Notes under the pieces: model-generated | Seen by the model: the letters and a program-made list of their open reading frames with translations, nothing else | Told to the model about the DNA's origin: nothing | The model's database searches: none | Shown here: positions 10,869 through 63,840 of the stretch, one piece after another | Numbering within the stretch: the first letter of the stretch is position 1 | Layout of the letters: the number at the start of each line of letters is the position of its first letter | Virus record (IMG/VR): IMGVR_UViG_2513237329_000013 | Location: 32,001-96,000 of that record | Direction: 5' to 3' (one strand) | Length of the DNA: 64,000 nt | DNA from: a virus | Lineage: Duplodnaviria; Caudoviricetes | Position numbers and translations under genes: made by a program

Positions 10869-10956
10869 AAGACACTTGTAAGGAAAAAGAAAGGGGTAGT
10901 GATACAATGGAGGTTGTAATAGGATGTTTCATTAAACAAATCGCTGCAAGTGTCTT
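10869..10956 (-). ncRNA. RCAGC-motif small RNA, copy A
   Basis: AAGACAC-TT-GCAGCGAT...GTGTCTT closing helix. Confidence 0.65.
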
Positions 10957-11996: not shown

Positions 11997-12061
11997 AGAG
12001 CGCCTTGTTTGGCTGATCAGTTAAAAGTTGATTCCATAAATAAGGTTGCTGTATGCGCTCT
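11997..12061 (-). ncRNA. RCAGC-motif small RNA, copy B (Lys-UUU anticodon mimic)
   Basis: AGAGCGC-AT-ACAGCAAC...ATCAA-CTTTTAA-CTGAT...GCGCTCT. Confidence 0.75.
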
Positions 12062-12955: not shown

Positions 12956-13038
12956 GAGACGCAACATCATTTACACCCAATAGATAAAATCAAACTCATC
13001 TTTTATGTATAGAAATTTGAAGTTGCTGTAAGCGTCTC
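12956..13038 (-). ncRNA. RCAGC-motif small RNA, copy C
   Basis: GAGACGC-TT-ACAGCAAC...GCGTCTC. Confidence 0.7.
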
Positions 13039-13048
13039 TAACAACTGC

Positions 13049-13110
13049 AAGGCACTTATGTACTTTCTATTATCCGCAAGAAAATCCTCCAAAGTTGCTG
13101 CGTGTGCCTT
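13049..13110 (-). ncRNA. RCAGC-motif small RNA, copy D
   Basis: AAGGCAC-AC-GCAGCAAC...GTGCCTT. Confidence 0.7.
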
Positions 13111-13199: not shown

Positions 13200-13251
13200 G
13201 AGAGAATCAGTAAAAGCAGCATCGCCACGAGCAGGCTTCTCTCCTGATGCC
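13200..13251 (-). ncRNA. Minimal HDV-like (theta-type) self-cleaving ribozyme
   Basis: P1 GGCATC/GATGCT (G1-U wobble), P2 GAGAGAA/TTCTCTC, P3 GCC/GGC, L3 TGCTCGT, J4/2 CTGA; abuts the tmRNA 3' end. Confidence 0.8.
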
Positions 13252-13252
13252 G

Positions 13253-13667
13253 TGGAGCAGAGGGGAATCGAACCCCTGTCCGAAATTCCTACATGAACAA
13301 AACATTCTTACGCAATAGATAACAATTTGCATTTTGTCCTAAGACGAGCTGCGTGGTGCTATCAACCAGCTCAGAGCCGCACCAGTTTTGCGACCTCCAC
13401 CACCTTATTTCTTTTCACAGTGATAAGGAAAACTGCAATGTCAGTCTGATTCTTTATTACCGCAGATGCTTACCCAGACTAAAAGTGCATCGTTTAAGCA
13501 TTCATCAACTGCAATTAAGCAGCAATACCCTCCATAACAGCATACAGAGCGGGATGAATCATAACCACAATAGAATCGTTGTCATTTCATTTTTGTTTGA
13601 GCCTTAGGCGGTCTCCATACCTGCGTATTTCGTCCTATCAAAACCCCGTCGAACCCATTACTGCCCC
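13253..13667 (-). ncRNA. ssrA: tmRNA
   Basis: 5' GGGGCAGTAATGGGTTCGAC, 3' T-arm GGTTCGATTCC, acceptor with G3-U70, tag ORF ending IAA-stop; CCA not encoded. Confidence 0.95.
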
Positions 13668-14841: not shown

Positions 14842-15472
14842 GAAAATTCAATACTTGAATCATACCTATCATTGAGCCTTCGCTCTACCTCCATTACCTT
14901 CTCACAATGTTCAGCCACCAGGGAGATAAGTCTGAGCTTCAAGGAGCGACCTTTAACTTCTTACCCCAGCCTTACACAGCGAACTGTATTAGGCCAATTC
15001 CTGCGCGGGATTGTTTACCCGCAAATTTCACCGTTCGTTCAGAAAATTTGATAGTTTCATACAATTTCTTTTTCATCATATCGTATTAAAGATCAAACAC
15101 CAAAACTGTCCTACGGCTACTTTAACCGACGACTTTCGTTATAGTCGAGTTTCTTCGACATCAAGACAGGAGCGCATTGTTGGCATTTCCTCTGGTTGTA
15201 CTGGTTGCCACGCCAGTATCCTTGAGGATTATTCTCCACAGGAGCGTCTATTGCTGCGCCCGAAAGTTCCGTGCTTTTTGTAGCGATAACTCTTGGCAAC
15301 ACACATTTTCGTTGGCAGTTTCCGCCTCCCAGCAATACATCACTGCATCACTGCCGTCTGGACAATAAAAGGTATCCCTCGTAAATCCAGCGGGAACTAT
15401 TGTGCGTCTCGGAGTGCTGACACACTTTATTCACCGAGTTAATCATAAGCATGATTCAAATATTGAATTTTC
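14842..15472 (-). ncRNA. Large ornate ncRNA, probably ROOL family
   Basis: ~630 nt with no convincing ORF; 28-bp terminal helix needing G-U pairs on the minus strand; phage tRNA-array context. Confidence 0.7.
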
Positions 15473-48643: not shown

Positions 48644-49543
48644 ATGAGAAAGAATGGTTTTGTTGGTGCTATCGTTTTGGCGATCATCATTTTTGGCGGC
48701 GTGATTCTCGGTTTTAGCTGTACATCGCGTGTCCCTACCGGTTATGTCGGAGTCGTTTATAATATGAACGGCGGCGTTGATGGTGAGGTTCTGAGTCAGG
48801 GCTGGCATCTTGTAGCGCCTACAAAGAAAGTAACCACCTATTCTATCGGTTTGGAGCAGTCCTACCTTACAAGCGAGGAAAAGGGTGACTCTCCGAACGA
48901 TGAGAGCTTTTCCATTCCGACGTCCGATGGCAAGACTGTTCGTGTAAATCTTGAGTTCTCTTACAGATTTGACGAAGAGCGTGTTGCTGAAACATTTACG
49001 ACTTTCAAGGGCAAGTCTGGAGAACAGATTAAGGATACATTTATTAAGCCTAAGATTATTGCGTGGACGCAGGAGGTTTCTGCAAATTACCCCGTCACTG
49101 ACATCTTTGGCGATAAGCGTACTGAAATCAATGCTGAGTTGGACACCTATTTGCGTGATAAGTTCGATAAGTACGGCATTATTATCGACACAGTAAACTT
49201 CACTGATATCAGTGTAGATGATGAAACCGCCGCCGCAATTCAGAAGAAGGTCACTGCGCAGCAGGAACTTGAACTGGCTAATATCGAGGCTCAGACTGCC
49301 AAGGTTCAGGCCGAAAAGGATCGTCAGGTTGCTGAAATCAACGCTGAGAAGCAGATCATTGATGCAAATGCGAAGGCTGAGGTAACGCGCATTGAAGCAG
49401 AAGCAGAAGCTCAGGCAAACCGTGAGATTGCCGCATCCCTCACCCCAAATCTGATTGAGAAGATCAAGTACGAGCGCTGGAATGGTGAGCTTCCTACCGT
49501 ATCTGGTTCTGGAGCAATCGTCAGTATTGACGGCGTTGACTGA
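48644..49543 (+). CDS. SPFH/prohibitin (Band 7) protein
   Basis: N-terminal TM, VPTGYVGV, AEAEA repeats, WNGELP. Confidence 0.9.
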   Translation: MRKNGFVGAIVLAIIIFGGVILGFSCTSRVPTGYVGVVYNMNGGVDGEVLSQGWHLVAPTKKVTTYSIGLEQSYLTSEEKGDSPNDESFSIPTSDGKTVRVNLEFSYRFDEERVAETFTTFKGKSGEQIKDTFIKPKIIAWTQEVSANYPVTDIFGDKRTEINAELDTYLRDKFDKYGIIIDTVNFTDISVDDETAAAIQKKVTAQQELELANIEAQTAKVQAEKDRQVAEINAEKQIIDANAKAEVTRIEAEAEAQANREIAASLTPNLIEKIKYERWNGELPTVSGSGAIVSIDGVD

Positions 49544-49556
49544 TCGGAGGATATGA

Positions 49557-49841
49557 ATGAAAAATAAGGTTCGTGATATCCTTGCGGATAAGAAAGTGAA
49601 GCTGCAAGAATTGACTGCACAGGCAGAAGCGGCGGTTGATCTTGTAACGAGAACAATTTCTGGTTTGGAGCTTGTCAACCAAGAAATTGATGACACGGTT
49701 GCAGAAATTGACAAGTATTCTGCTGAGCTTGCGTGTACGCGAGTGGAGCTTAGCAAGAATCGTACACACAATGCTGCGATCATTGCAAATTTTGCAAGAC
49801 TTCTGGAAGTTCCGGAAACAGAAAGTCAGCCAGTAGCCTAA
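49557..49841 (+). CDS. Coiled-coil hypothetical protein
   Basis: RBS GGAGG. Confidence 0.7.
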   Translation: MKNKVRDILADKKVKLQELTAQAEAAVDLVTRTISGLELVNQEIDDTVAEIDKYSAELACTRVELSKNRTHNAAIIANFARLLEVPETESQPVA

Positions 49842-49853
49842 TAGCTACTTGTA

Positions 49854-49909
49854 ACGACGCGAACAGCAATTTTCTTACATATATTTGGGTTATATCGTAC
49901 ATGCGTCGT
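49854..49909 (+). ncRNA. RCAGC-motif small RNA, copy E (Pro-UGG mimic)
   Basis: ACGACGC-GA-ACAGCAAT...ATATA-TTTGGGT-TATAT...GCGTCGT. Confidence 0.78.
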
Positions 49910-49937
49910 GTGAAATAAAACTTGGAGGAATAACATC

Positions 49938-50117
49938 GTGAAGCTGAAGTTCAATGTTGGTGATCGTGTTTTTGATAAGAAGTACGGTCATGGTGTGGTT
50001 CAGAGAGTTGATGCTGGAAACAGCGAGTTCCCGTATCTTATCTTCTACGAAGATGGGACGAAGATCTGGTATAAGGCAAAGGGTGTAACTCTTGCCCCTG
50101 CGGAACAGCAGGATTAA
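49938..50117 (+). CDS. 59-aa Tudor/SH3-like protein (PcrA/UvrD C-terminal-domain-like)
   Basis: KFNVGDRVFDKKYGHGVV; GTG start, RBS GGAGG; not in the ORF track. Confidence 0.65.
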   Translation: MKLKFNVGDRVFDKKYGHGVVQRVDAGNSEFPYLIFYEDGTKIWYKAKGVTLAPAEQQD

Positions 50118-50127
50118 GTAAGTTAGA

Positions 50128-50184
50128 AAGACGCAAACAGCAATCTAACAAAATCAAACTTGAAATTTGACAGATAAGCGTCTT
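50128..50184 (+). ncRNA. RCAGC-motif small RNA, copy F (Ser-UGA mimic)
   Basis: AAGACGC-AA-ACAGCAAT...TCAAA-CTTGAAA-TTTGA...GCGTCTT. Confidence 0.8.
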
Positions 50185-50196
50185 GTGGTGTGATAT

Positions 50197-50287
50197 GGAG
50201 TAGTAATCCTAACTGGTAAGGAAGTAGTTTGCTAAACTACCAGTAATCGGGAACGATGTGCAGGTTCGAGTCCTGTCTACTCCGCCA
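50197..50287 (+). tRNA. tRNA-Ser(GCU)
   Basis: Loop TTGCTAA, variable arm, CCA. Confidence 0.92.
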
Positions 50288-50291
50288 ACAA

Positions 50292-50442
50292 AAGCAAGTA
50301 GACAAAGAGAAAGTCTGTTCGCAATCGAAGCCGGCAATCATTGATTATTTTGTCCGCTTTCTTCACGGTAACTGCATGGCAGGAGTGCGAATACAAAACA
50401 GATTGGGTTCTGTTGTATGGGAGCGTGGCCTATACCTTGCTT
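50292..50442 (+). ncRNA. Putative ~150-nt structured RNA
   Basis: Closing AAGCAAG/CTTGCTT; TCACGGTA and ATACAA/TTGTATGG as in 12157-12310. Confidence 0.45.
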
Positions 50443-50449
50443 GATATAT

Positions 50450-50536
50450 GCTGATGTGATGGAACTGGCATACATGGGGGACTTAAAATCCCCCGCCGAT
50501 TGTGGATTATGGGTTCGACTCCCATCATCAGCACCA
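50450..50536 (+). tRNA. tRNA-Leu(UAA)
   Basis: Loop CTTAAAA, variable arm, CCA. Confidence 0.93.
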
Positions 50537-50617
50537 GCCGTTGTGATGATCGGCTTTCATCTCCTTCTTTGTGTGACGGTGGGACAGACCACTACTGCCG
50601 TGTAAGTGCGGCATAAA

Positions 50618-50730
50618 TGAGGGCGTCTGGATGACAGCTTTAAGGTGTATCGAACGGCGGACACCTACAGCAATGTTCTTTAAGAAAACTGGAATTTTTC
50701 TGCTTGCGGGTTCGATTCCCGTAGCTCTCA
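50618..50730 (+). ncRNA. tRNA-like RNA with RCAGC insert, copy G (Ser-GGA loop)
   Basis: Acceptor TGAGGGC/GCTCTCA, T loop TTCGATT, ACAC-CT-ACAGCAAT, AGAAAA-CTGGAAT-TTTTCT. Confidence 0.7.
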
Positions 50731-50799
50731 AAGCCGTTAAATAATCTTCTCGAATTGGTGAGCAATTCACAACTTCTCTGGGAAGATGTAATAAGAAAT

Positions 50800-50910
50800 G
50801 CAGAGGTAGCTCAGTCGGTAGAGCATCAGACAAAAAATGTGCTAAGCATTAGCACTAACAGCAATGTTAAAGGAATCCGAGTGTCGGAGGTTCGAGTCCT
50901 CCCCTCTGCG
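50800..50910 (+). ncRNA. tRNA-like RNA with RCAGC insert in the anticodon loop, copy H
   Basis: Canonical acceptor, D and T arms; GTGCTAA/TTAGCAC-TA-ACAGCAAT inserted. Confidence 0.8.
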
Positions 50911-50917
50911 TCTATAT

Positions 50918-50989
50918 TCGTGTGTAACATTTACGAAAGTACACCGTGGATGCGATTGGTATATGTCAGTTCGATTCTGACCGCACGAG
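50918..50989 (+). ncRNA. Degenerate tRNA-like element
   Basis: Acceptor TCGTGTG/CGCACGA and T arm intact; D and anticodon arms aberrant. Confidence 0.5.
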
Positions 50990-50997
50990 CCTATAAT

Positions 50998-51112
50998 GCC
51001 AGGGTAGCTCAACTGGTAGAGCGCGTAATAATGCGACTTGTTAAGCCGCTTACAGCAAATTTCTTTTGGTCTGTTAAACCCGTGGTTGCAGGTTCGATTC
51101 CTGCCCCTGGCT
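50998..51112 (+). ncRNA. tRNA-Asn(GUU)-like RNA with RCAGC insert in the anticodon stem, copy I
   Basis: CG-[hairpin-TT-ACAGCAAA]-GGT-CTGTTAA-ACCCG; canonical D and T arms. Confidence 0.8.
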
Positions 51113-51198
51113 CAACGTGAATGACTGCTTAAACCATTCTAAACCGACACGACAAAAGGGTAGAAATGGTGACAGCTCGGAGAGACGGGCATCTATAT

Positions 51199-51316
51199 AC
51201 GGCAGTGGTGAAGCGGTAACACAGCAGCCATACAAATGCGAAAAGTGGATTTTCGCTAACAGCTATTTCACACTCCAAGCTGCCAATCGTAGGTTCGATT
51301 CCTACCTGCCGTTCCA
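51199..51316 (+). ncRNA. tRNA-Gly(UCC)-like RNA with RCAGC insert in the anticodon loop, copy J
   Basis: GCAGC-[GCGAAAA/TTTTCGC-TA-ACAGCTAT]-CTCCAA-GCTGC; ends U73-CCA. Confidence 0.8.
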
Positions 51317-51376
51317 CGGGTATAGAGTTGACTTTTCCGTTCAAACAGCCCCTTATAAAGTTGGTAGTAACGGTAT

Positions 51377-51440
51377 GAGACGCACACAGCAATTTGTAAG
51401 TAAAGTATTTGGCCTGATAAGCGGATTTCTTTTGCGTCTC
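51377..51440 (+). ncRNA. RCAGC-motif small RNA, copy K (Ile-GAU mimic)
   Basis: GAGACGC-AC-ACAGCAAT...TTGGC-CTGATAA-GCGGA...GCGTCTC. Confidence 0.78.
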
Positions 51441-51450
51441 GCCCCCTCCT

Positions 51451-51490
51451 TTAAGACACAAACAGCATCGAGTGTGAAATGGTGTCTTGA
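51451..51490 (+). ncRNA. RCAGC-motif minimal copy L in the DUF2828 leader
   Basis: AAGACAC-AA-ACAGCATC...GTGTCTT, 53 nt before the start codon. Confidence 0.65.
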
Positions 51491-51543
51491 AGGCTATTTC
51501 AAGCGAAAAGAAATTAGTTAAACAATTCAAGGAGGAAGTAGGT

Positions 51544-53088
51544 ATGAGTGGTTTTATGTCTGCTATGAAAAGCACTTTGAACGATGAGTTCAATGTTTCT
51601 GTTACTGAGAACGGTGCTATTGGCTATCGCACTACTGGCAAGGAACTGTTGGATCTCAACTTTGCCGTTGCATCTCTTCGTAAGGCATCTCCGAGCGATA
51701 TTGCAAATCGTTTCGTCAGAGCGTTTTTCGAGGATAAGATCACGGCAATGAAATGGCTGTTCTTTGCGCGTGATGTTCGTGGAGGTCTTGGTGAACGCCG
51801 TTTGTTCCGCATTGTGTTTCAGCGCATGGCTGAGGAAAATCCGGAATACATCATTCCGCTGCTTCCTCTCGTTCCTGAGTATGGACGCTATGATGACCTG
51901 TGGTGTTTGTTTGATACAAAGCTTGCACCTAATGTACTGAACATCATTGCGCAGCAGCTCCGCGAGGACATTCAGAACTTGAGTGATGGCAATGGTATTT
52001 CTCTTCTCGCAAAGTGGCTTCCGTCTGCGAATGCTCATTCCGCTGACGCAAAGCGTTATGCTAAGCAGATTTACAAGTTTATGGGCATTTCTGAGCGCGA
52101 CTACCGTAAGGTGCTGTCCAAGCTGCGTTCTAAGCTGGATATCGTGGAGAAGAAAATGTCCGAAAAGCGTTGGGATGAGATTGCGTATGAAGCTGTCCCG
52201 TCTCGTGCAAATCTGATTTACAACTCTGCGTTCCTTCGTAACGACGAAGATCGTCGCCGTGATTTCCTATCCCGTTTGGAAAAGGGCGAAACGAAAATCA
52301 ATGCGTCTACGCTTTTCCCGCATGACATTGTTGCAAAGTATAGCGATGGTTGGCGTGGTCTGAAGCCTACGGATAAGACGCTTGAAGCTCTTTGGAACGC
52401 GCTTCCCGATACCGTAAACGGATGCGGCAATACAATTGTTGTTGCGGATGGCAGCGGCAGTATGACCGTGAATGTTGGCGGCGGCAATGTTACTGCGCTG
52501 GCTGTGGCAAACGCGCTTGCAATTTATTTCGCAGAGCGTTCCTCTGGTCAGTTCAAGGATAATTACATTACATTTTCTGAGCGTCCTCAGCTCGTCGATT
52601 TGAGTAAGGGTAAGAATCTCCGTGAGAAGATTCAGATTGCGCTTAAACACAGCGAGGTAGCAAACACAAATATCGAAGCGGTGTTTGATCTTATCCTGAC
52701 TACGGCAAAGAAAAACAATATGGAACAGAGCGACCTTCCCGCAAACATCCTTATTATCTCCGATATGGAGTTTGACTACTGCGCAACATCGAATGGCGGA
52801 AGCCGATATACTCGTGGTAGTGTTGATTCTCGTCTGTTTGACAAGATTGCAAAGCGCTACGAGGACGCTGGGTATAAGTTACCAAGGCTTGTGTTCTGGA
52901 ATGTGAATAGCCGCACGAATACTATTCCTATTAAGGAAAACGAGATGGGAGTTGCGCTTGTAAGCGGTTTTAGCCCGAACATCGCAAAGATGGTGATGAG
53001 CGGTCAAACCGATCCGTATGAGTGCTTGCTTGAAACGCTGAACTCTGATCGTTATAAGCCTATCGGTGACGCTCTGGAAAATCAGTAA
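51544..53088 (+). CDS. DUF2828 family protein (helical domain + vWA, Ro60/TROVE-like)
   Basis: ARDVRGGLGER, YGRYDD, AKWLPS, MIDAS DGSGSM, T, SDMEFD, VFWNV; RBS AGGAGG. Confidence 0.88.
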   Translation: MSGFMSAMKSTLNDEFNVSVTENGAIGYRTTGKELLDLNFAVASLRKASPSDIANRFVRAFFEDKITAMKWLFFARDVRGGLGERRLFRIVFQRMAEENPEYIIPLLPLVPEYGRYDDLWCLFDTKLAPNVLNIIAQQLREDIQNLSDGNGISLLAKWLPSANAHSADAKRYAKQIYKFMGISERDYRKVLSKLRSKLDIVEKKMSEKRWDEIAYEAVPSRANLIYNSAFLRNDEDRRRDFLSRLEKGETKINASTLFPHDIVAKYSDGWRGLKPTDKTLEALWNALPDTVNGCGNTIVVADGSGSMTVNVGGGNVTALAVANALAIYFAERSSGQFKDNYITFSERPQLVDLSKGKNLREKIQIALKHSEVANTNIEAVFDLILTTAKKNNMEQSDLPANILIISDMEFDYCATSNGGSRYTRGSVDSRLFDKIAKRYEDAGYKLPRLVFWNVNSRTNTIPIKENEMGVALVSGFSPNIAKMVMSGQTDPYECLLETLNSDRYKPIGDALENQ

Positions 53089-53185
53089 AACTCCAACCCA
53101 AAAGTAAGCAAACCACGAAATAAGTGGGTAGTTAAGTAGGGCGGCGGGTGTCCGCCGCCCTATCATTATATCCGGAGGTTCGTTT

Positions 53186-53470
53186 ATGGACTTGGTTACA
53201 AAATATATTATGACGCATTCTGATGGTCGCAGTCATCCTATTTGCGGTTCTGCTATTGCTGCTGCATTTTGTGTGTCGAGCGTTGAAGTGAGACGGCTTG
53301 TAAACGCCGCTCGTACAAATGGTGATCCGATTTGTTCCAGTGGGCGTGGATACTACATTGCAAAGGACAAAGATGAAATCCAGAAGACAATCGAGTCTCT
53401 ACAAGGTCGCATCGCTGGCATGAGTAACGCTGTGTCCGGACTGCAGCAGTATATGGAAGGAGCGCTCTAA
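53186..53470 (+). CDS. Winged-helix DNA-binding protein
   Basis: VRRLVN.AR..G.PICS...GYY. Confidence 0.7.
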   Translation: MDLVTKYIMTHSDGRSHPICGSAIAAAFCVSSVEVRRLVNAARTNGDPICSSGRGYYIAKDKDEIQKTIESLQGRIAGMSNAVSGLQQYMEGAL

Positions 53471-61459: not shown

Positions 61460-62899
61460 ATGTACGCAGCATATGTAACTCGTATTAAGAATTTGCGCAA
61501 ACATTCAAACGCGGATCGACTTCTCTGCGGTGAATGTTTTGGCAATACGGTAATTGTGGGCTTGGATACAAAGCCAGAAGAGCTTGGTGTTTATTTCCCC
61601 GTAGATGGCAAGCTTGGAACTGAGTATGCGGTGAAGAATGACCTGCTTCGGCGTAAGGATGAAAACGGTAAGCCGGCTGGTGGTTATCTCGATCCTGAAA
61701 AGCGCAATATTAAGGCGTTGAAGCTTCGTGGCGAAAAGAGCGATGGCTTGTTTATGCCGTTGTCCAGTTTGAACGGGTTTACGGATATTGCAAAGCTCCG
61801 TGAGGGCGATGTAATTACCATTTTGAATGGTGTCACAATTTGTGAGAAGTATATCCCACGTCGTAAGAAGAGTACCATTATGGTTGGGGGGGGTAGGACT
61901 CGTAAGCATCACGATCCTATTGCCCCGCTCTTTGCGGAACATGCTGACACGGAACAGCTTGCATATAACCTCAGCGCATTTCACCAAGGCGATCTTGTTG
62001 AGATTACTTTGAAAATGCACGGTACATCTCAGCGAACCGGATATCTGCCAACGCTTAAAGGATATAAGAGGACATTGCTTGATAAACTCCTACATCGCGT
62101 TGGTTCTCCGATTTATAATTGGGGATATGTAACTGGCACTCGTCGTGTTGTTCTGGATGATTTTGACGGCGGCTTCTATGGCAGCAATGCTTTCCGTGAA
62201 CAGCATAGCAAGGTTTTTGAAGGTAAGCTTCATAAGGGCGAAACCGTGTACTATGAAGTCGTTGGCTTTACGCAAGACAAGCAGCCTATTATGGCATCTT
62301 GCGACAATAAAAAAGTCGGTGATAAGGAATTTGTTAAACAATACGGAGAAAAGACAGTGTTTAGCTATGGTTGCTATCCGGACGGTGTAAAGGAAGTAAC
62401 AAATCCGAAAATTACATACGCAACAGTAATGATTGGCGATACCTCTTTTACAGCAAATGAGATTACGGAATATGAATCTGCTCCGCAGTCTGATTTTTAT
62501 GTGTATCGAATGACGATGACAAATGAGGATGGCGATGTTGTCGAATACACACCTGACTTTATGCGTTATCGTTGTGAGCAGATGGGTGTTAAGTGCGTTC
62601 CGCTATTCGCTCGATTCATCATTCCGGATTACATCCAGCTTCCTGATGCTGTTGGATCTCCGATGGCTGTCAATGCTGGCGAATATGTCAAGGAGATTGC
62701 CGAAAACTTCTATGATGGTGCAGACCCGATTGGTAAGTCGCATGTCCGAGAGGGCGTTGTTTGCCGTATCGTAAACCGCCCAAAGTTTACAGCATATAAG
62801 CACAAGAATTTTGCATTCAAGGTACTTGAGGGAATTGTAAAGGATATTGCGTCTGCTCCGGACATGGAAGAAGCGCAGGATGAGACAAGCGCCGCGTAA
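61460..62899 (+). CDS. RNA ligase (Rnl2/DRB0094-like) with N-terminal tRNA-binding OB fold
   Basis: HSNADRL, LRGEKSDG, motif I KMHGTS, YYEVVG, FYVY, REGVV, YKHKN. Confidence 0.85.
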   Translation: MYAAYVTRIKNLRKHSNADRLLCGECFGNTVIVGLDTKPEELGVYFPVDGKLGTEYAVKNDLLRRKDENGKPAGGYLDPEKRNIKALKLRGEKSDGLFMPLSSLNGFTDIAKLREGDVITILNGVTICEKYIPRRKKSTIMVGGGRTRKHHDPIAPLFAEHADTEQLAYNLSAFHQGDLVEITLKMHGTSQRTGYLPTLKGYKRTLLDKLLHRVGSPIYNWGYVTGTRRVVLDDFDGGFYGSNAFREQHSKVFEGKLHKGETVYYEVVGFTQDKQPIMASCDNKKVGDKEFVKQYGEKTVFSYGCYPDGVKEVTNPKITYATVMIGDTSFTANEITEYESAPQSDFYVYRMTMTNEDGDVVEYTPDFMRYRCEQMGVKCVPLFARFIIPDYIQLPDAVGSPMAVNAGEYVKEIAENFYDGADPIGKSHVREGVVCRIVNRPKFTAYKHKNFAFKVLEGIVKDIASAPDMEEAQDETSAA

Positions 62900-63018
62900 C
62901 GACATTACGCATCTTATCCATCAATGCTGAACGGTGTGCTGGAATATGCACGAATTTGTAGTTCCAGCACACTGCAGGCATATTGCCAGAGATTGTATTT
63001 TGAAAGAGAGGTGCTGTG

Positions 63019-63840
63019 ATGAGTGACAGAGTAAAGATTATGAAACGGCTTTCTGAACACCTCGAAGCAGTAAGAGACAAACACCCTGAGTGGGTTGGTA
63101 TTTTTCTTCAAGGTTCACAAAACTACAACTTAGACTATGAGGGAAGCGATATTGATTCCAAGCTGATTGTCCTCCCTTCGTTTGAAGATTTTGTTTTGAA
63201 CAAAAGACCATATAGTTACACACACATCATGGAAAACGATGAACATGTAGATGTTAAGGATATTCGTCTGATGCTCGATTGCTTCAAAAAGCAGAATGTA
63301 AATTTTGTTGAGATTCTTTTTACGCCGTACCGTATCTTGAATCCAAAGTACGAAGCTTTGTTCCAGCCGATTCTTGATATTGCAGAGAGAGTCGGTCGAT
63401 ATAACAACTATGCCGCATTGAATTGCATGGTAGGAATGGCGCTCGAAAAGCAAAAGGCATTGTGCCACCCATATCCTGCAACAAAAGACAAGATTGATAA
63501 ATACGGGTTCGATAGCAAACAGTATCATCACATTGAGCGTCTTTATGAATTCATGCAGCGTTGGCTTAATGGCGAGCCATATCGTGATTGCCTCGTTTCT
63601 AAACAAGTGGAGCGTCTTAGAGAAATCAAGCTTTATATTAACTGCGATCTTACAACGGCGCAGGTCAATTCGGATAGAATCGTATCTGAGATGAAATCAA
63701 TCAAGGACACTTATATGCAGCAGAATCCAGTTGTAGTAGACCGTGAGGTTGATTCGGTTTTCAATAAAGTTCTGCTTGATTTATTTAAGTTCAACTTCCA
63801 GTGCGAGCTTGGTAACGACTCGCCCAATAAAAAGGAGTAA
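63019..63840 (+). CDS. Pol-beta-type nucleotidyltransferase
   Basis: LQGSQNY.LD...SDIDSK, N.NFVE.L. Confidence 0.82.
   Translation: MSDRVKIMKRLSEHLEAVRDKHPEWVGIFLQGSQNYNLDYEGSDIDSKLIVLPSFEDFVLNKRPYSYTHIMENDEHVDVKDIRLMLDCFKKQNVNFVEILFTPYRILNPKYEALFQPILDIAERVGRYNNYAALNCMVGMALEKQKALCHPYPATKDKIDKYGFDSKQYHHIERLYEFMQRWLNGEPYRDCLVSKQVERLREIKLYINCDLTTAQVNSDRIVSEMKSIKDTYMQQNPVVVDREVDSVFNKVLLDLFKFNFQCELGNDSPNKKE

What the first reader, a model, noticed from the sequence alone, without database searches (positions are those of the whole stretch)
49854..51440. Stand-alone motif RNAs display a panel of different anticodon stem-loop mimics
Seen: inside the closing helix sits a 5-bp stem with a canonical 7-nt Y-U-NNN-R-N loop. 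These are TT-TGG-GT (Pro, 49879-49895), CT-TGA-AA (Ser, 50154-50170), CT-GGA-AT (Ser, 50683-50701), CT-GAT-AA (Ile, 51409-51425, one mismatch) and CT-TTT-AA (Lys, 12016-12032 minus, one mismatch). Copies E, F, K and B have no acceptor, D or T arm and so cannot be charged. Known: anticodon nucleases (PrrC, RloC, PARIS AriB, VapC) cut specific anticodon loops, notably tRNA-Lys(UUU). Inference: the panel acts as protein-scaffolded decoys or sensors for host anticodon nucleases, or as bait for synthetases and modification enzymes. Copies A, C, D and L have weak or no such loop.
Basis: partly seen in the sequence, partly recalled or inferred. Interest (0 to 1): 0.9.

Follow-up and report, generated by a model that had tools for sequence, protein, structure and literature searches.

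The report
Anticodon-arm mimics on phage Y-like RNAs
This gut phage makes small RNAs that share one conserved "handle", lie beside a Ro60-shaped protein gene, and in several copies display a faithful imitation of a tRNA anticodon arm with a different anticodon each; I found no paper describing this design, which may bait proteins that read or cut tRNA anticodons.

Summary
All five hairpins are at the stated coordinates. E (Pro UGG), F (Ser UGA) and G (Ser GGA) have perfect stems. B (Lys UUU) has a loop-closing A.C mismatch that recurs in homologues. K (Ile GAU) is broken in every close relative. G is not stand-alone: it lies inside a chimeric tRNA-like gene.

The hairpins are far more than chance. 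Among 200 distinct short homologous elements from about 140 phage loci, 48 carry a perfect 5-bp stem with a 7-nt YU-NNN-RN loop. Shuffles give 4.6 +/- 2.2. Thirty-five loops are identical to real phage tRNA anticodon loops, against 0.5 expected. Stems covary under fixed loops, and anticodons switch on otherwise identical scaffolds. Phages rarely repeat an anticodon.

The handle is a 7-bp clamp followed by ACAGCAA. It is tightly linked and co-oriented with a DUF2828/DUF7788 gene, whose model folds like Ro60.

My reading is that these are Y-RNA-like partner RNAs whose cargo is an anticodon arm shown to some anticodon-reading factor. The nuclease-decoy idea is plausible but untested. No expression or binding data exist.

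I found no Rfam family and no paper. The same handle defines the unexplained Class I RNAs of Dictyostelium. This scan has already noted the same design on other phage DNA.

The parts
49854..49909 (+). Copy E: stand-alone handle RNA. Clamp helix 49854-49860/49903-49909, core ACAGCAAT 49863-49870, anticodon-arm mimic 49879-49895 (loop UUUGGGU, Pro UGG with G37).
   Evidence: The MFE contains the 5-bp stem and 7-nt loop. Homologues with other stems and the same loop type are L015, L022, L023 and L185.
50128..50184 (+). Copy F: stand-alone handle RNA. Clamp 50128-50134/50178-50184, core 50137-50144, anticodon-arm mimic 50154-50170 (loop CUUGAAA, Ser UGA).
   Evidence: L013, L017, L025 and L077 keep the loop with compensatory stem changes. 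The single-sequence MFE prefers a shifted pairing.
50619..50729 (+). Copy G: chimeric tRNA-like unit. Acceptor-like stem 50619-50624/50724-50729, handle as hairpin 50644-50665 plus core 50667-50674, anticodon arm 50683-50701 (loop CUGGAAU, GGA), T arm 50706-50722. No encoded CCA.
   Evidence: The L015:9163 homologue has the same layout with loop CUGGUAC. Weak Rfam tRNA-Sec hit.
50800..50910 (+). Copy H: tRNA-like gene in which a hairpin (50839-50855) plus core ACAGCAAT (50858-50865) replaces the anticodon loop.
   Evidence: Rfam tRNA hit at 52.6 bits with a 44-nt insert in the anticodon loop; homologues in L013 and L015.
50998..51112 (+). Copy I: tRNA-like gene with handle hairpin 51033-51049 and core 51052-51059, followed by a short-stem anticodon-like loop CUGUUAA (51068-51080, Asn GUU).
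   Evidence: The L015 homologue keeps CUGUUAA. L022 and L024 homologues carry CUUUUAA and CUUGUAA.
51199..51313 (+). Copy J: tRNA-like gene in which a hairpin (51238-51256) plus core ACAGCTAT (51259-51266) replaces the anticodon loop. It encodes CCA.
51376..51441 (+). Copy K: stand-alone handle RNA about 100 nt upstream of the DUF2828 start. The claimed arm 51409-51425 (loop CUGAUAA, Ile GAU) has a G.G mismatch and a G.U, so it is a doubtful mimic.
   Evidence: Close relatives keep the mismatch and change the loop. L025/L037 have a perfect Ile arm in the same gene-proximal place.
51448..51493 (+). Copy L: minimal handle (12-bp clamp, core ACAGCATC) with a 12-nt cargo and no anticodon arm, in the 5' leader of the DUF2828 gene.
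51544..53088 (+). DUF2828/DUF7788 (vWA) protein, Ro60-like fold. It is the presumed protein partner of the handle.
   Evidence: Pfam hits DUF7788 at 1.6e-43 and DUF2828 at 1.8e-33; PHROG 850 'RNA-binding protein'; AF2 model pLDDT 71; the Foldseek top 10 are all Ro60/TROVE, probability 1.0.
11997..12061 (-). Copy B: stand-alone handle RNA between two tRNA-Leu genes. Anticodon-arm mimic 12016-12032 (loop CUUUUAA, Lys UUU) with an A.C at the loop-closing pair.
   Evidence: The same A.C next to CUUUUAA occurs in L026 and L167.
10869..10956 (-). Copy A: handle RNA directly after tRNA-Trp. Cargo of 64 nt without an anticodon-like loop.
12956..13038 (-). Copy C: handle RNA. The cargo is a long irregular hairpin with no anticodon-like loop.
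13049..13110 (-). Copy D: handle RNA directly after tRNA-Pro. No anticodon-like loop.

Best explanation
E, F and B (K doubtfully) are small Y-RNA-like RNAs. They are transcribed within the phage's tRNA operons and probably released by tRNA processing. Each has a conserved handle: a 7-bp clamp with consensus AAGRCRC/GYGYCUU joining the two ends, followed on the 5' side by two variable bases and the single-stranded ACAGCAA. The handle is most likely the binding site of the phage's Ro60-like DUF2828 protein. The cargo held by the handle is swappable. In about a quarter to a third of family members it is a faithful copy of a tRNA anticodon arm: a 5-bp AU-rich stem and a 7-nt loop identical to a real tRNA loop, often stacked on a further 3-bp helix. 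The anticodon differs from copy to copy within one phage. The particle would then show isolated anticodon arms to a factor that reads anticodon loops, acting as bait, competitor or adaptor for that factor. Shown here: the mimicry, its conservation, and the linkage of the handle to the gene. Inferred: that the protein binds the handle, and that an anticodon-reading factor is the target. Host anticodon nucleases or tRNA-repair enzymes are the best candidates.
For: Hairpins are present as described. Family level: 383 handle elements against 40 in reversed-sequence controls. Of 200 short distinct cargos, 48 have perfect anticodon-arm hairpins against 4.6 +/- 2.2 in shuffles. Only 7-nt loops are enriched, 102 against 48. 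Thirty-five loops are identical to real phage tRNA anticodon loops against 0.5 +/- 0.7. The same loop sits on many different complementary stems: Lys 7, Asn 6, Pro 5, Cys 4, Ser 4. RNAalifold independently predicts the stem, with compensatory changes at all 4 pairs. Anticodons switch on otherwise identical scaffolds: L025 versus L034, L049 versus L190, L001 versus L002. Of 30 loci with two or more such cargos, only 1 repeats an anticodon. Link to the protein: 230 elements are on the gene's strand against 10 opposite, and 55 of 94 loci have an element within 150 nt upstream of the start. A handle-first search returned 33 closed elements. Thirteen of them have DUF2828 within the fetched locus, against 2 of 50 unclosed chance hits. 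Of 9 further contigs checked, 7 hold the gene elsewhere. The motif is present next to DUF2828 in Bacillus, Enterococcus, Listeria, Mycobacterium, E. coli and Vibrio phages. The protein model matches Ro60 structures. Ro60 partners are known to mimic tRNA (PMC4201824). An RNA ligase and a nucleotidyltransferase lie 8-10 kb downstream, and RtcB plus an RNA ligase lie beside the gene in a Listeria phage.
Against: There is no expression, end-mapping or binding evidence. The stems are AU-rich and weak, and single-sequence folding is unimpressive (E z = -1.07; F's MFE uses a shifted pairing). Cargos are perfect mimics in 24% of cases, one-mismatch mimics in 18% (about 13% expected by chance), and nothing of the kind in 58%. 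K is broken in all close relatives. The loci are related, so counts are not fully independent, although identical cargos were merged. About 10% of detected elements are expected to be false. The sequences aligned for one search were chosen for having the hairpin.
Confidence: 0.6

Rival explanations
1. Specific decoy or trap for host anticodon nucleases. The particle offers anticodon loops of the tRNAs that host defence nucleases cut, soaking up or capturing the nuclease and sparing host and phage tRNAs.
For: Lys UUU, the classic target of PrrC and PARIS AriB (PMC12409363 and PMC1484252, listed), is among the commonest cargos, alongside Asn, Ser, Pro and Cys. Anticodon switching between close relatives looks like an arms race. 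The cargo repertoire is skewed relative to the phages' own tRNA repertoire. The phages carry large tRNA sets and RNA ligases, which fits pressure from tRNA cleavage.
Against: Nothing here tests cleavage or binding. Nucleases turn over, so a cleavable decoy must be very abundant or bind without release. Several anticodon nucleases need base modifications or the whole tRNA body (established knowledge). Ser, Pro and Cys are not classic phage-defence targets. Most family members carry no anticodon arm.
Confidence: 0.22
2. The anticodon arms are leftovers of tRNA genes from which handle RNAs arose, kept only as a stable spacer hairpin. The anticodon identity has no function.
For: The family includes every intermediate: whole tRNAs inside the clamp, anticodon arm plus T arm, and chimeric tRNAs. 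That fits an origin from tRNA genes. Many cargos have no such hairpin.
Against: A leftover would decay, yet full 7-nt loops are kept over 45-98% protein identity while the stems change by compensatory pairs. Isoacceptor details are retained, such as G37 and U32 with UGG. The stems differ from those of the phage's own tRNAs, so these are not recent copies. Changes inside loops keep the YU...RA frame.
Confidence: 0.1
3. The handle is mainly a cis-acting signal, either an operator for autoregulation of DUF2828 translation or a processing site in tRNA operons. The cargo is incidental.
For: Fifty-five of 94 loci have an element within 150 nt upstream of the start codon. In Vibrio phage nt-1 the clamp's 3' strand overlaps the start codon and the cargo holds the ribosome-binding site (L009:3965-4005). 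Copies A, B and D start 3-4 nt after a tRNA 3' end.
Against: Copies A-D lie 40 kb from the gene in another operon. Arrays of 3-14 units with different cargos are not needed for an operator. This reading does not explain the tRNA-identical loops. It can hold for K and L alongside the main explanation.
Confidence: 0.08

Closest known systems
Ro60 (Rsr) with Y RNAs, especially the tRNA-like YrlA of bacteria and phages (Rfam RF02553; Chen et al. 2014, PMC4201824; Thermus phage phiLo Ro60 with Yrl1/2, PMC12135203)
   Same: A ring-shaped HEAT-repeat plus vWA protein is encoded next to small RNAs whose two ends pair into a stem and whose other part imitates tRNA. Both occur in phages with many tRNA genes. 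Some relatives here (E. coli phage Alf5 L091:10420-10545, mycobacteriophage Faith1 L092:9536-9657) even enclose a YrlA-style permuted T-arm/acceptor/D-arm domain.
   Different: The protein is DUF2828/DUF7788, not Pfam TROVE, with no sequence-level match to solved Ro60. The handle is a clamp plus ACAGCAA, not the bulged Ro-binding helix. The best Rfam YrlA hit in the region searched (49700-51700) is 21 bits against a cut-off of 69, and it lies elsewhere. The part of tRNA imitated here is the anticodon arm, which YrlA lacks.
Class I (type-I) non-coding RNAs of Dictyostelium (Aspegren 2004; Kjellin 2021, PMC7919456; search pattern in PMC5054030)
   Same: These are RNAs of 42-65 nt with a 6-bp stem joining the two ends, a conserved 11-nt motif directly after the 5' stem strand, and a variable remainder. 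The published search pattern is GTTGRCCTTACAGCAA ... GTCAACTG. That is the same clamp-NN-ACAGCAA arrangement as the handle here.
   Different: They are eukaryotic, have their own upstream promoter element and many dispersed genes, and are reported as restricted to dictyostelids. The only known protein partner is an RRM protein. No anticodon-like cargo is reported. Whether they are related or convergent was not tested here.
Genuine tRNA anticodon stem-loops and synthetic ASL minihelices
   Same: A 5-bp stem, a 7-nt loop with Y32, U33 and R37, and loops identical to those of the phage's own tRNA-Ser(UGA), Lys(UUU) and Ile(GAU). The Pro loop differs only at position 38.
   Different: There is no acceptor, D or T arm, so no charging. 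The stems are AU-rich and unrelated to those of the phage's tRNAs. The hairpin is embedded in a clamp-closed RNA.

Membership tests
tRNA anticodon-arm mimic (structural definition) | 5-bp stem closing a 7-nt loop with Y32, U33 and R37 | tested here: met
   E, F and G are perfect. B has a recurrent A.C at pair 31-39. K has a G.G mismatch. Family excess is 48 against 4.6.
tRNA anticodon-arm mimic (structural definition) | Loop sequence equal to that of a real tRNA isoacceptor, including positions 32, 37 and 38 | tested here: met
   Thirty-five loops are identical to real phage tRNA loops against 0.5 expected. In the window, F, B and K match the phage's own Ser, Lys and Ile loops. E differs from the Pro loop only at position 38.
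tRNA gene | Cloverleaf with acceptor, D and T arms | tested here: not met
   ARAGORN and the Rfam tRNA model do not call E, F, K or B. Their cargos are 32-41 nt.
Y RNA / YrlA (Ro60 partner RNA) | Encoded next to a Ro60 gene | tested here: inconclusive
   The neighbouring gene has a Ro60-like fold (Foldseek probability 1.0, TM 0.4-0.55 on a pLDDT 71 model). By sequence it is DUF2828/DUF7788, not TROVE.
Y RNA / YrlA (Ro60 partner RNA) | Match to the YrlA covariance model with its conserved Ro-binding helix | tested here: not met
   No hit on E, F or K at E <= 10 (region 49700-51700). Copies A-D got only the gathering-threshold scan of the whole window, which found nothing. The only hit is 21.3 bits against a cut-off of 69, at 50943-51050.
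Y RNA / YrlA (Ro60 partner RNA) | Physical binding to the Ro60-type protein | not testable with these tools
   Only genomic linkage is available.
Dictyostelium Class I RNA | Short terminal stem, then the motif ..UUACAGCAA next to the 5' strand, total length about 42-65 nt | tested here: met
   The handle consensus is AAGRCRC-WW-ACAGCAA and the published pattern is GTTGRCCTTACAGCAA..GTCAACTG. E, F, B and K are 56-66 nt.
Dictyostelium Class I RNA | Dictyostelid origin with the DUSE promoter element | tested here: not met
   These are phage genes inside tRNA operons. No eukaryotic context.

The most novel reading that the evidence does not exclude
DUF2828 particles are a programmable, RNA-based anti-defence device. 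Each handle RNA presents one anticodon arm so that the Ro60-like ring captures or diverts the host nuclease (or other effector) that attacks that tRNA, and phages retune the panel by point changes in the anticodon. The shared handle with Dictyostelium Class I RNAs would then point to an ancient, cross-kingdom RNA-protein module.
Probability: 0.2. Interest if true: 0.92.

Novelty: new variant of a known kind. Interest (0 to 1): 0.77.

Why it matters
tRNA cleavage is now recognised as a common bacterial defence, and phage tRNA genes as a counter-measure. A family of phage RNAs that display isolated anticodon arms on a protein-binding handle would be a second, RNA-based way for phages to deal with factors that read anticodons. 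It would also give the widespread but uncharacterised DUF2828 'RNA-binding protein' of phages (711 phage records) a concrete set of ligands to test. It extends Ro60/Y-RNA biology from imitation of the tRNA elbow to imitation of the anticodon arm. The identical handle in Dictyostelium Class I RNAs offers a testable lead for a 20-year-old orphan RNA class.

Tried and rejected
RNA-seq: the look-up of sequencing runs listed no holder on record as RNA, so I laid no reads.

Promoter and terminator scan of 49400-53400: no more sites than in shuffles, so uninformative.

Sequence search of the DUF2828 profile against PDB chains: no Ro60 match. The fold search was needed instead.

RtcB in the phage record: none found.

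Anticodon inserts of H, I and J read as introns: rejected. No reading of the flanks restores a 7-nt loop with U33 (sequence).

Covariance model of the handle: not built. The variable cargo length misaligns the 3' clamp strand in MAFFT, so I used a regex-plus-helix detector with reversed-sequence controls.

Conserved neighbours: the two radical-SAM genes downstream of DUF2828 are conserved only among close relatives, so I did not link them to the RNAs.

Extra 3-bp helix under the anticodon arm: present in 28 of 48 cases against 18.4 +/- 3.0 with shuffled flanks. This is only modest support and I do not rely on it.

Synthetase bait: judged unlikely for the Ser cargos.
Full report
What the window is. 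The window is the 32-96 kb part of a 127-kb virus record. It has two RNA-gene regions. A minus-strand array at 9.7-15.7 kb holds 21 tRNAs, a tmRNA and a ROOL RNA. A plus-strand cluster lies at 49.85-51.5 kb. The second cluster ends 50 nt before a 514-aa gene (51544-53088) that matches Pfam DUF7788 (1.6e-43), DUF2828 (1.8e-33) and PHROG 850 'RNA-binding protein'.

The repeated unit. Twelve places share a 'handle'. It is a helix of about 7 bp, then two variable bases, then ACAGCAA(U). In eight copies the helix joins the two ends of a 37-88-nt unit: A, B, C, D on the minus strand and E, F, K, L on the plus strand. In four copies (G, H, I, J) the helix is a local hairpin followed by the same core, set inside a tRNA-like gene. 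A scan of the whole virus record finds no further copies and no further tRNAs outside the window.

The observation. The five hairpins are there, letter for letter. E, F and G have perfect stems with loops UUUGGGU, CUUGAAA and CUGGAAU. B has an A.C at the loop-closing pair. K has a G.G mismatch and a G.U. E, F, K and B have cargos of 32-41 nt, and neither ARAGORN nor the Rfam tRNA model calls them. They therefore cannot be charged.

- G is not stand-alone. It sits in a unit (50619-50729) with an acceptor-like stem, the hairpin form of the handle, the anticodon arm and a T arm.
- K keeps its mismatch and lets its loop drift in all close relatives.

Single-sequence folding is weak evidence. E has z = -1.07, and F's MFE uses a shifted pairing. 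The case rests on comparison with homologues.

Homologous elements. The protein has more than 8000 relatives and occurs in 711 phage records. I fetched 94 loci around homologues at 43-98% identity, plus Bacillus, Enterococcus, Vibrio, E. coli, Mycobacterium and Listeria phages. I also fetched about 110 loci found by the handle pattern alone. A detector (RCAGCDA, 2-nt spacer, clamp of at least 7 bp) finds 383 elements in 2.7 Mb, against 40 in the reversed sequences.

Linkage to the gene:
- Elements lie on the gene's strand 230 times and on the opposite strand 10 times.
- 161 lie within 2 kb upstream of the gene.
- 55 of 94 loci have an element ending within 150 nt of the start codon.
- Starting from the handle instead, 33 hits are closed by the matching 3' strand. 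Thirteen of them have DUF2828 in the short locus, and 7 of 9 further contigs have it elsewhere. Only 2 of 50 unclosed chance hits have it.

Is the anticodon arm more than chance?
- Among 200 distinct cargos of 50 nt or less, 48 hold a perfect 5-bp stem with a 7-nt YU-NNN-RN loop, T-loops excluded. Dinucleotide shuffles give 4.6 +/- 2.2, with a maximum of 13.
- Only 7-nt loops are enriched (102 against 48). Other loop sizes are not.
- Thirty-five loops are identical to anticodon loops of real tRNAs in the same loci, against 0.5 +/- 0.7 expected.
- The same loop sits on many different complementary stems: CUUUUAA on 7, CUGUUAA on 6, UUUGGGN on 5, CUGCAAA on 4, CUUGAAA on 4.
- RNAalifold on a MAFFT alignment of 26 such elements predicts just this stem, with compensatory changes at all four pairs. 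Those sequences were chosen for having the hairpin.
- Isoacceptor details are kept. G37 and U32 go with UGG, and A37 goes with the others.
- The stems are AU-rich and unlike those of the phages' own tRNAs, so these are not recent gene copies.
- The hairpin sits at a fixed place, 8-10 nt after the core.

Is it a panel? Of 30 loci with two or more such cargos, only one repeats an anticodon. Otherwise identical scaffolds differ only in the loop: Ser UGA against Lys UUU (L025 and L034), CCGUUAA against CUUUUAA (L049 and L190), UGG against UUG (L001 and L002). The cargo repertoire is Ser UGA, Lys, Asn, Pro, Cys and Ser GCU. It is skewed relative to the phages' tRNA repertoire, though numbers are small and the loci are related.

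Limits. Twenty-four per cent of short cargos are perfect mimics. Eighteen per cent have one mismatch, where about 13% is expected by chance. Fifty-eight per cent show nothing of the kind. Other cargos are an anticodon arm plus T arm, whole tRNAs, or YrlA-like permuted tRNA domains. The family is modular, and the anticodon arm is one of its cargos.

The protein. An AlphaFold2 model (pLDDT 71) has Ro60/TROVE structures as its ten best Foldseek matches in the PDB, including the Thermus phage phiLo Ro60 (probability 1.0, TM 0.4-0.55). A sequence profile finds no solved relative. Ro60 binds Y RNAs through a terminal stem, and bacterial and phage YrlA RNAs imitate the tRNA elbow (PMC4201824; PMC12135203).

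Mechanism. I read the handle as the protein's binding site and the cargo as what the particle shows to other factors. An isolated anticodon arm can be read by anticodon nucleases, by enzymes that modify or repair the anticodon loop, and by the ribosome's decoding site. Seryl-tRNA synthetase does not read the anticodon, which weakens the synthetase-bait idea for the commonest cargo. An RNA ligase (phrog_968, 2.4e-64) and a nucleotidyltransferase lie 8-10 kb downstream. In a Listeria phage the gene sits beside RtcB, an RNA ligase and phosphoesterases. That context fits tRNA damage and repair. Which factor is engaged remains open, and the nuclease-decoy reading gets about 0.2.

Known or new. No Rfam family matches. 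The whole window was scanned at gathering thresholds and 49700-51700 at E <= 10. Searches for DUF2828, phage Ro60/Y RNA, anticodon-nuclease decoys and phage tRNA mimics found no description. The published search pattern is GTTGRCCTTACAGCAA ... GTCAACTG, and the RNAs have a 6-bp terminal stem, an 11-nt motif and a variable rest. That is the same handle. This scan has already reported the same handle-plus-anticodon-arm design on other phage DNA. My counts were made independently and agree with those notes.

Noticed in passing
window 50619-51313: Four chimeric tRNA-like genes carry the handle as a local hairpin plus ACAGCAA. In H and J it replaces the anticodon loop. In G and I it sits between the D-arm region and a retained anticodon-like arm. 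Only J encodes CCA. Homologues with the same layouts exist at 68-75% protein identity (L013, L015, L022, L024).
   Followed up: partly
handle of all copies, e.g. window 12956-13038 (-): The handle (clamp, NN, ACAGCAA) equals the published search pattern of the unexplained Dictyostelium Class I RNAs, GTTGRCCTTACAGCAA..GTCAACTG (PMC5054030; PMC7919456).
   Followed up: partly
L009:3965-4005 (Vibrio phage nt-1): A handle lies in the DUF2828 leader. Its 3' clamp strand overlaps the start codon and the ribosome-binding site is inside the cargo, which suggests translational autoregulation. K and L occupy the equivalent leader in the window (51376-51493).
   Followed up: no
L091:10420-10545 (E. coli phage Alf5); L092:9536-9657 (mycobacteriophage Faith1): Handle RNAs whose cargo is a permuted tRNA-like domain (T arm, acceptor-like hairpin, D arm), the same topology as YrlA, next to DUF2828 rather than a TROVE Ro60.
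   Followed up: no
window 50943-51050: An orphan T-arm hairpin (50965-50981) lies between H and I, and a weak Rfam YrlA match (21 bits, E 0.19) spans it and the 5' half of I.
   Followed up: no
window 61460-62899 and 63016-63840: An RNA ligase (phrog_968, 2.4e-64) and a nucleotidyltransferase (phrog_388) lie downstream of the DUF2828 gene. A homologue of the ligase lies within 10 kb of DUF2828 in 24 of 93 loci. There is no RtcB in this virus record.
   Followed up: partly
L049:11606-11669, L110, L154 and others: Some cargos, and at least one called phage tRNA (L057), have C instead of the universal U at loop position 33 (CCGUUAA, CCUGUAC, CCUUUCU).
   Followed up: no
window 13250-13667 and 14855-15462 (-): A tmRNA (86.5 bits) and a full-length ROOL RNA (394 bits) lie inside the phage tRNA array, and handle RNAs A-D are interleaved with the tRNAs.
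   Followed up: no
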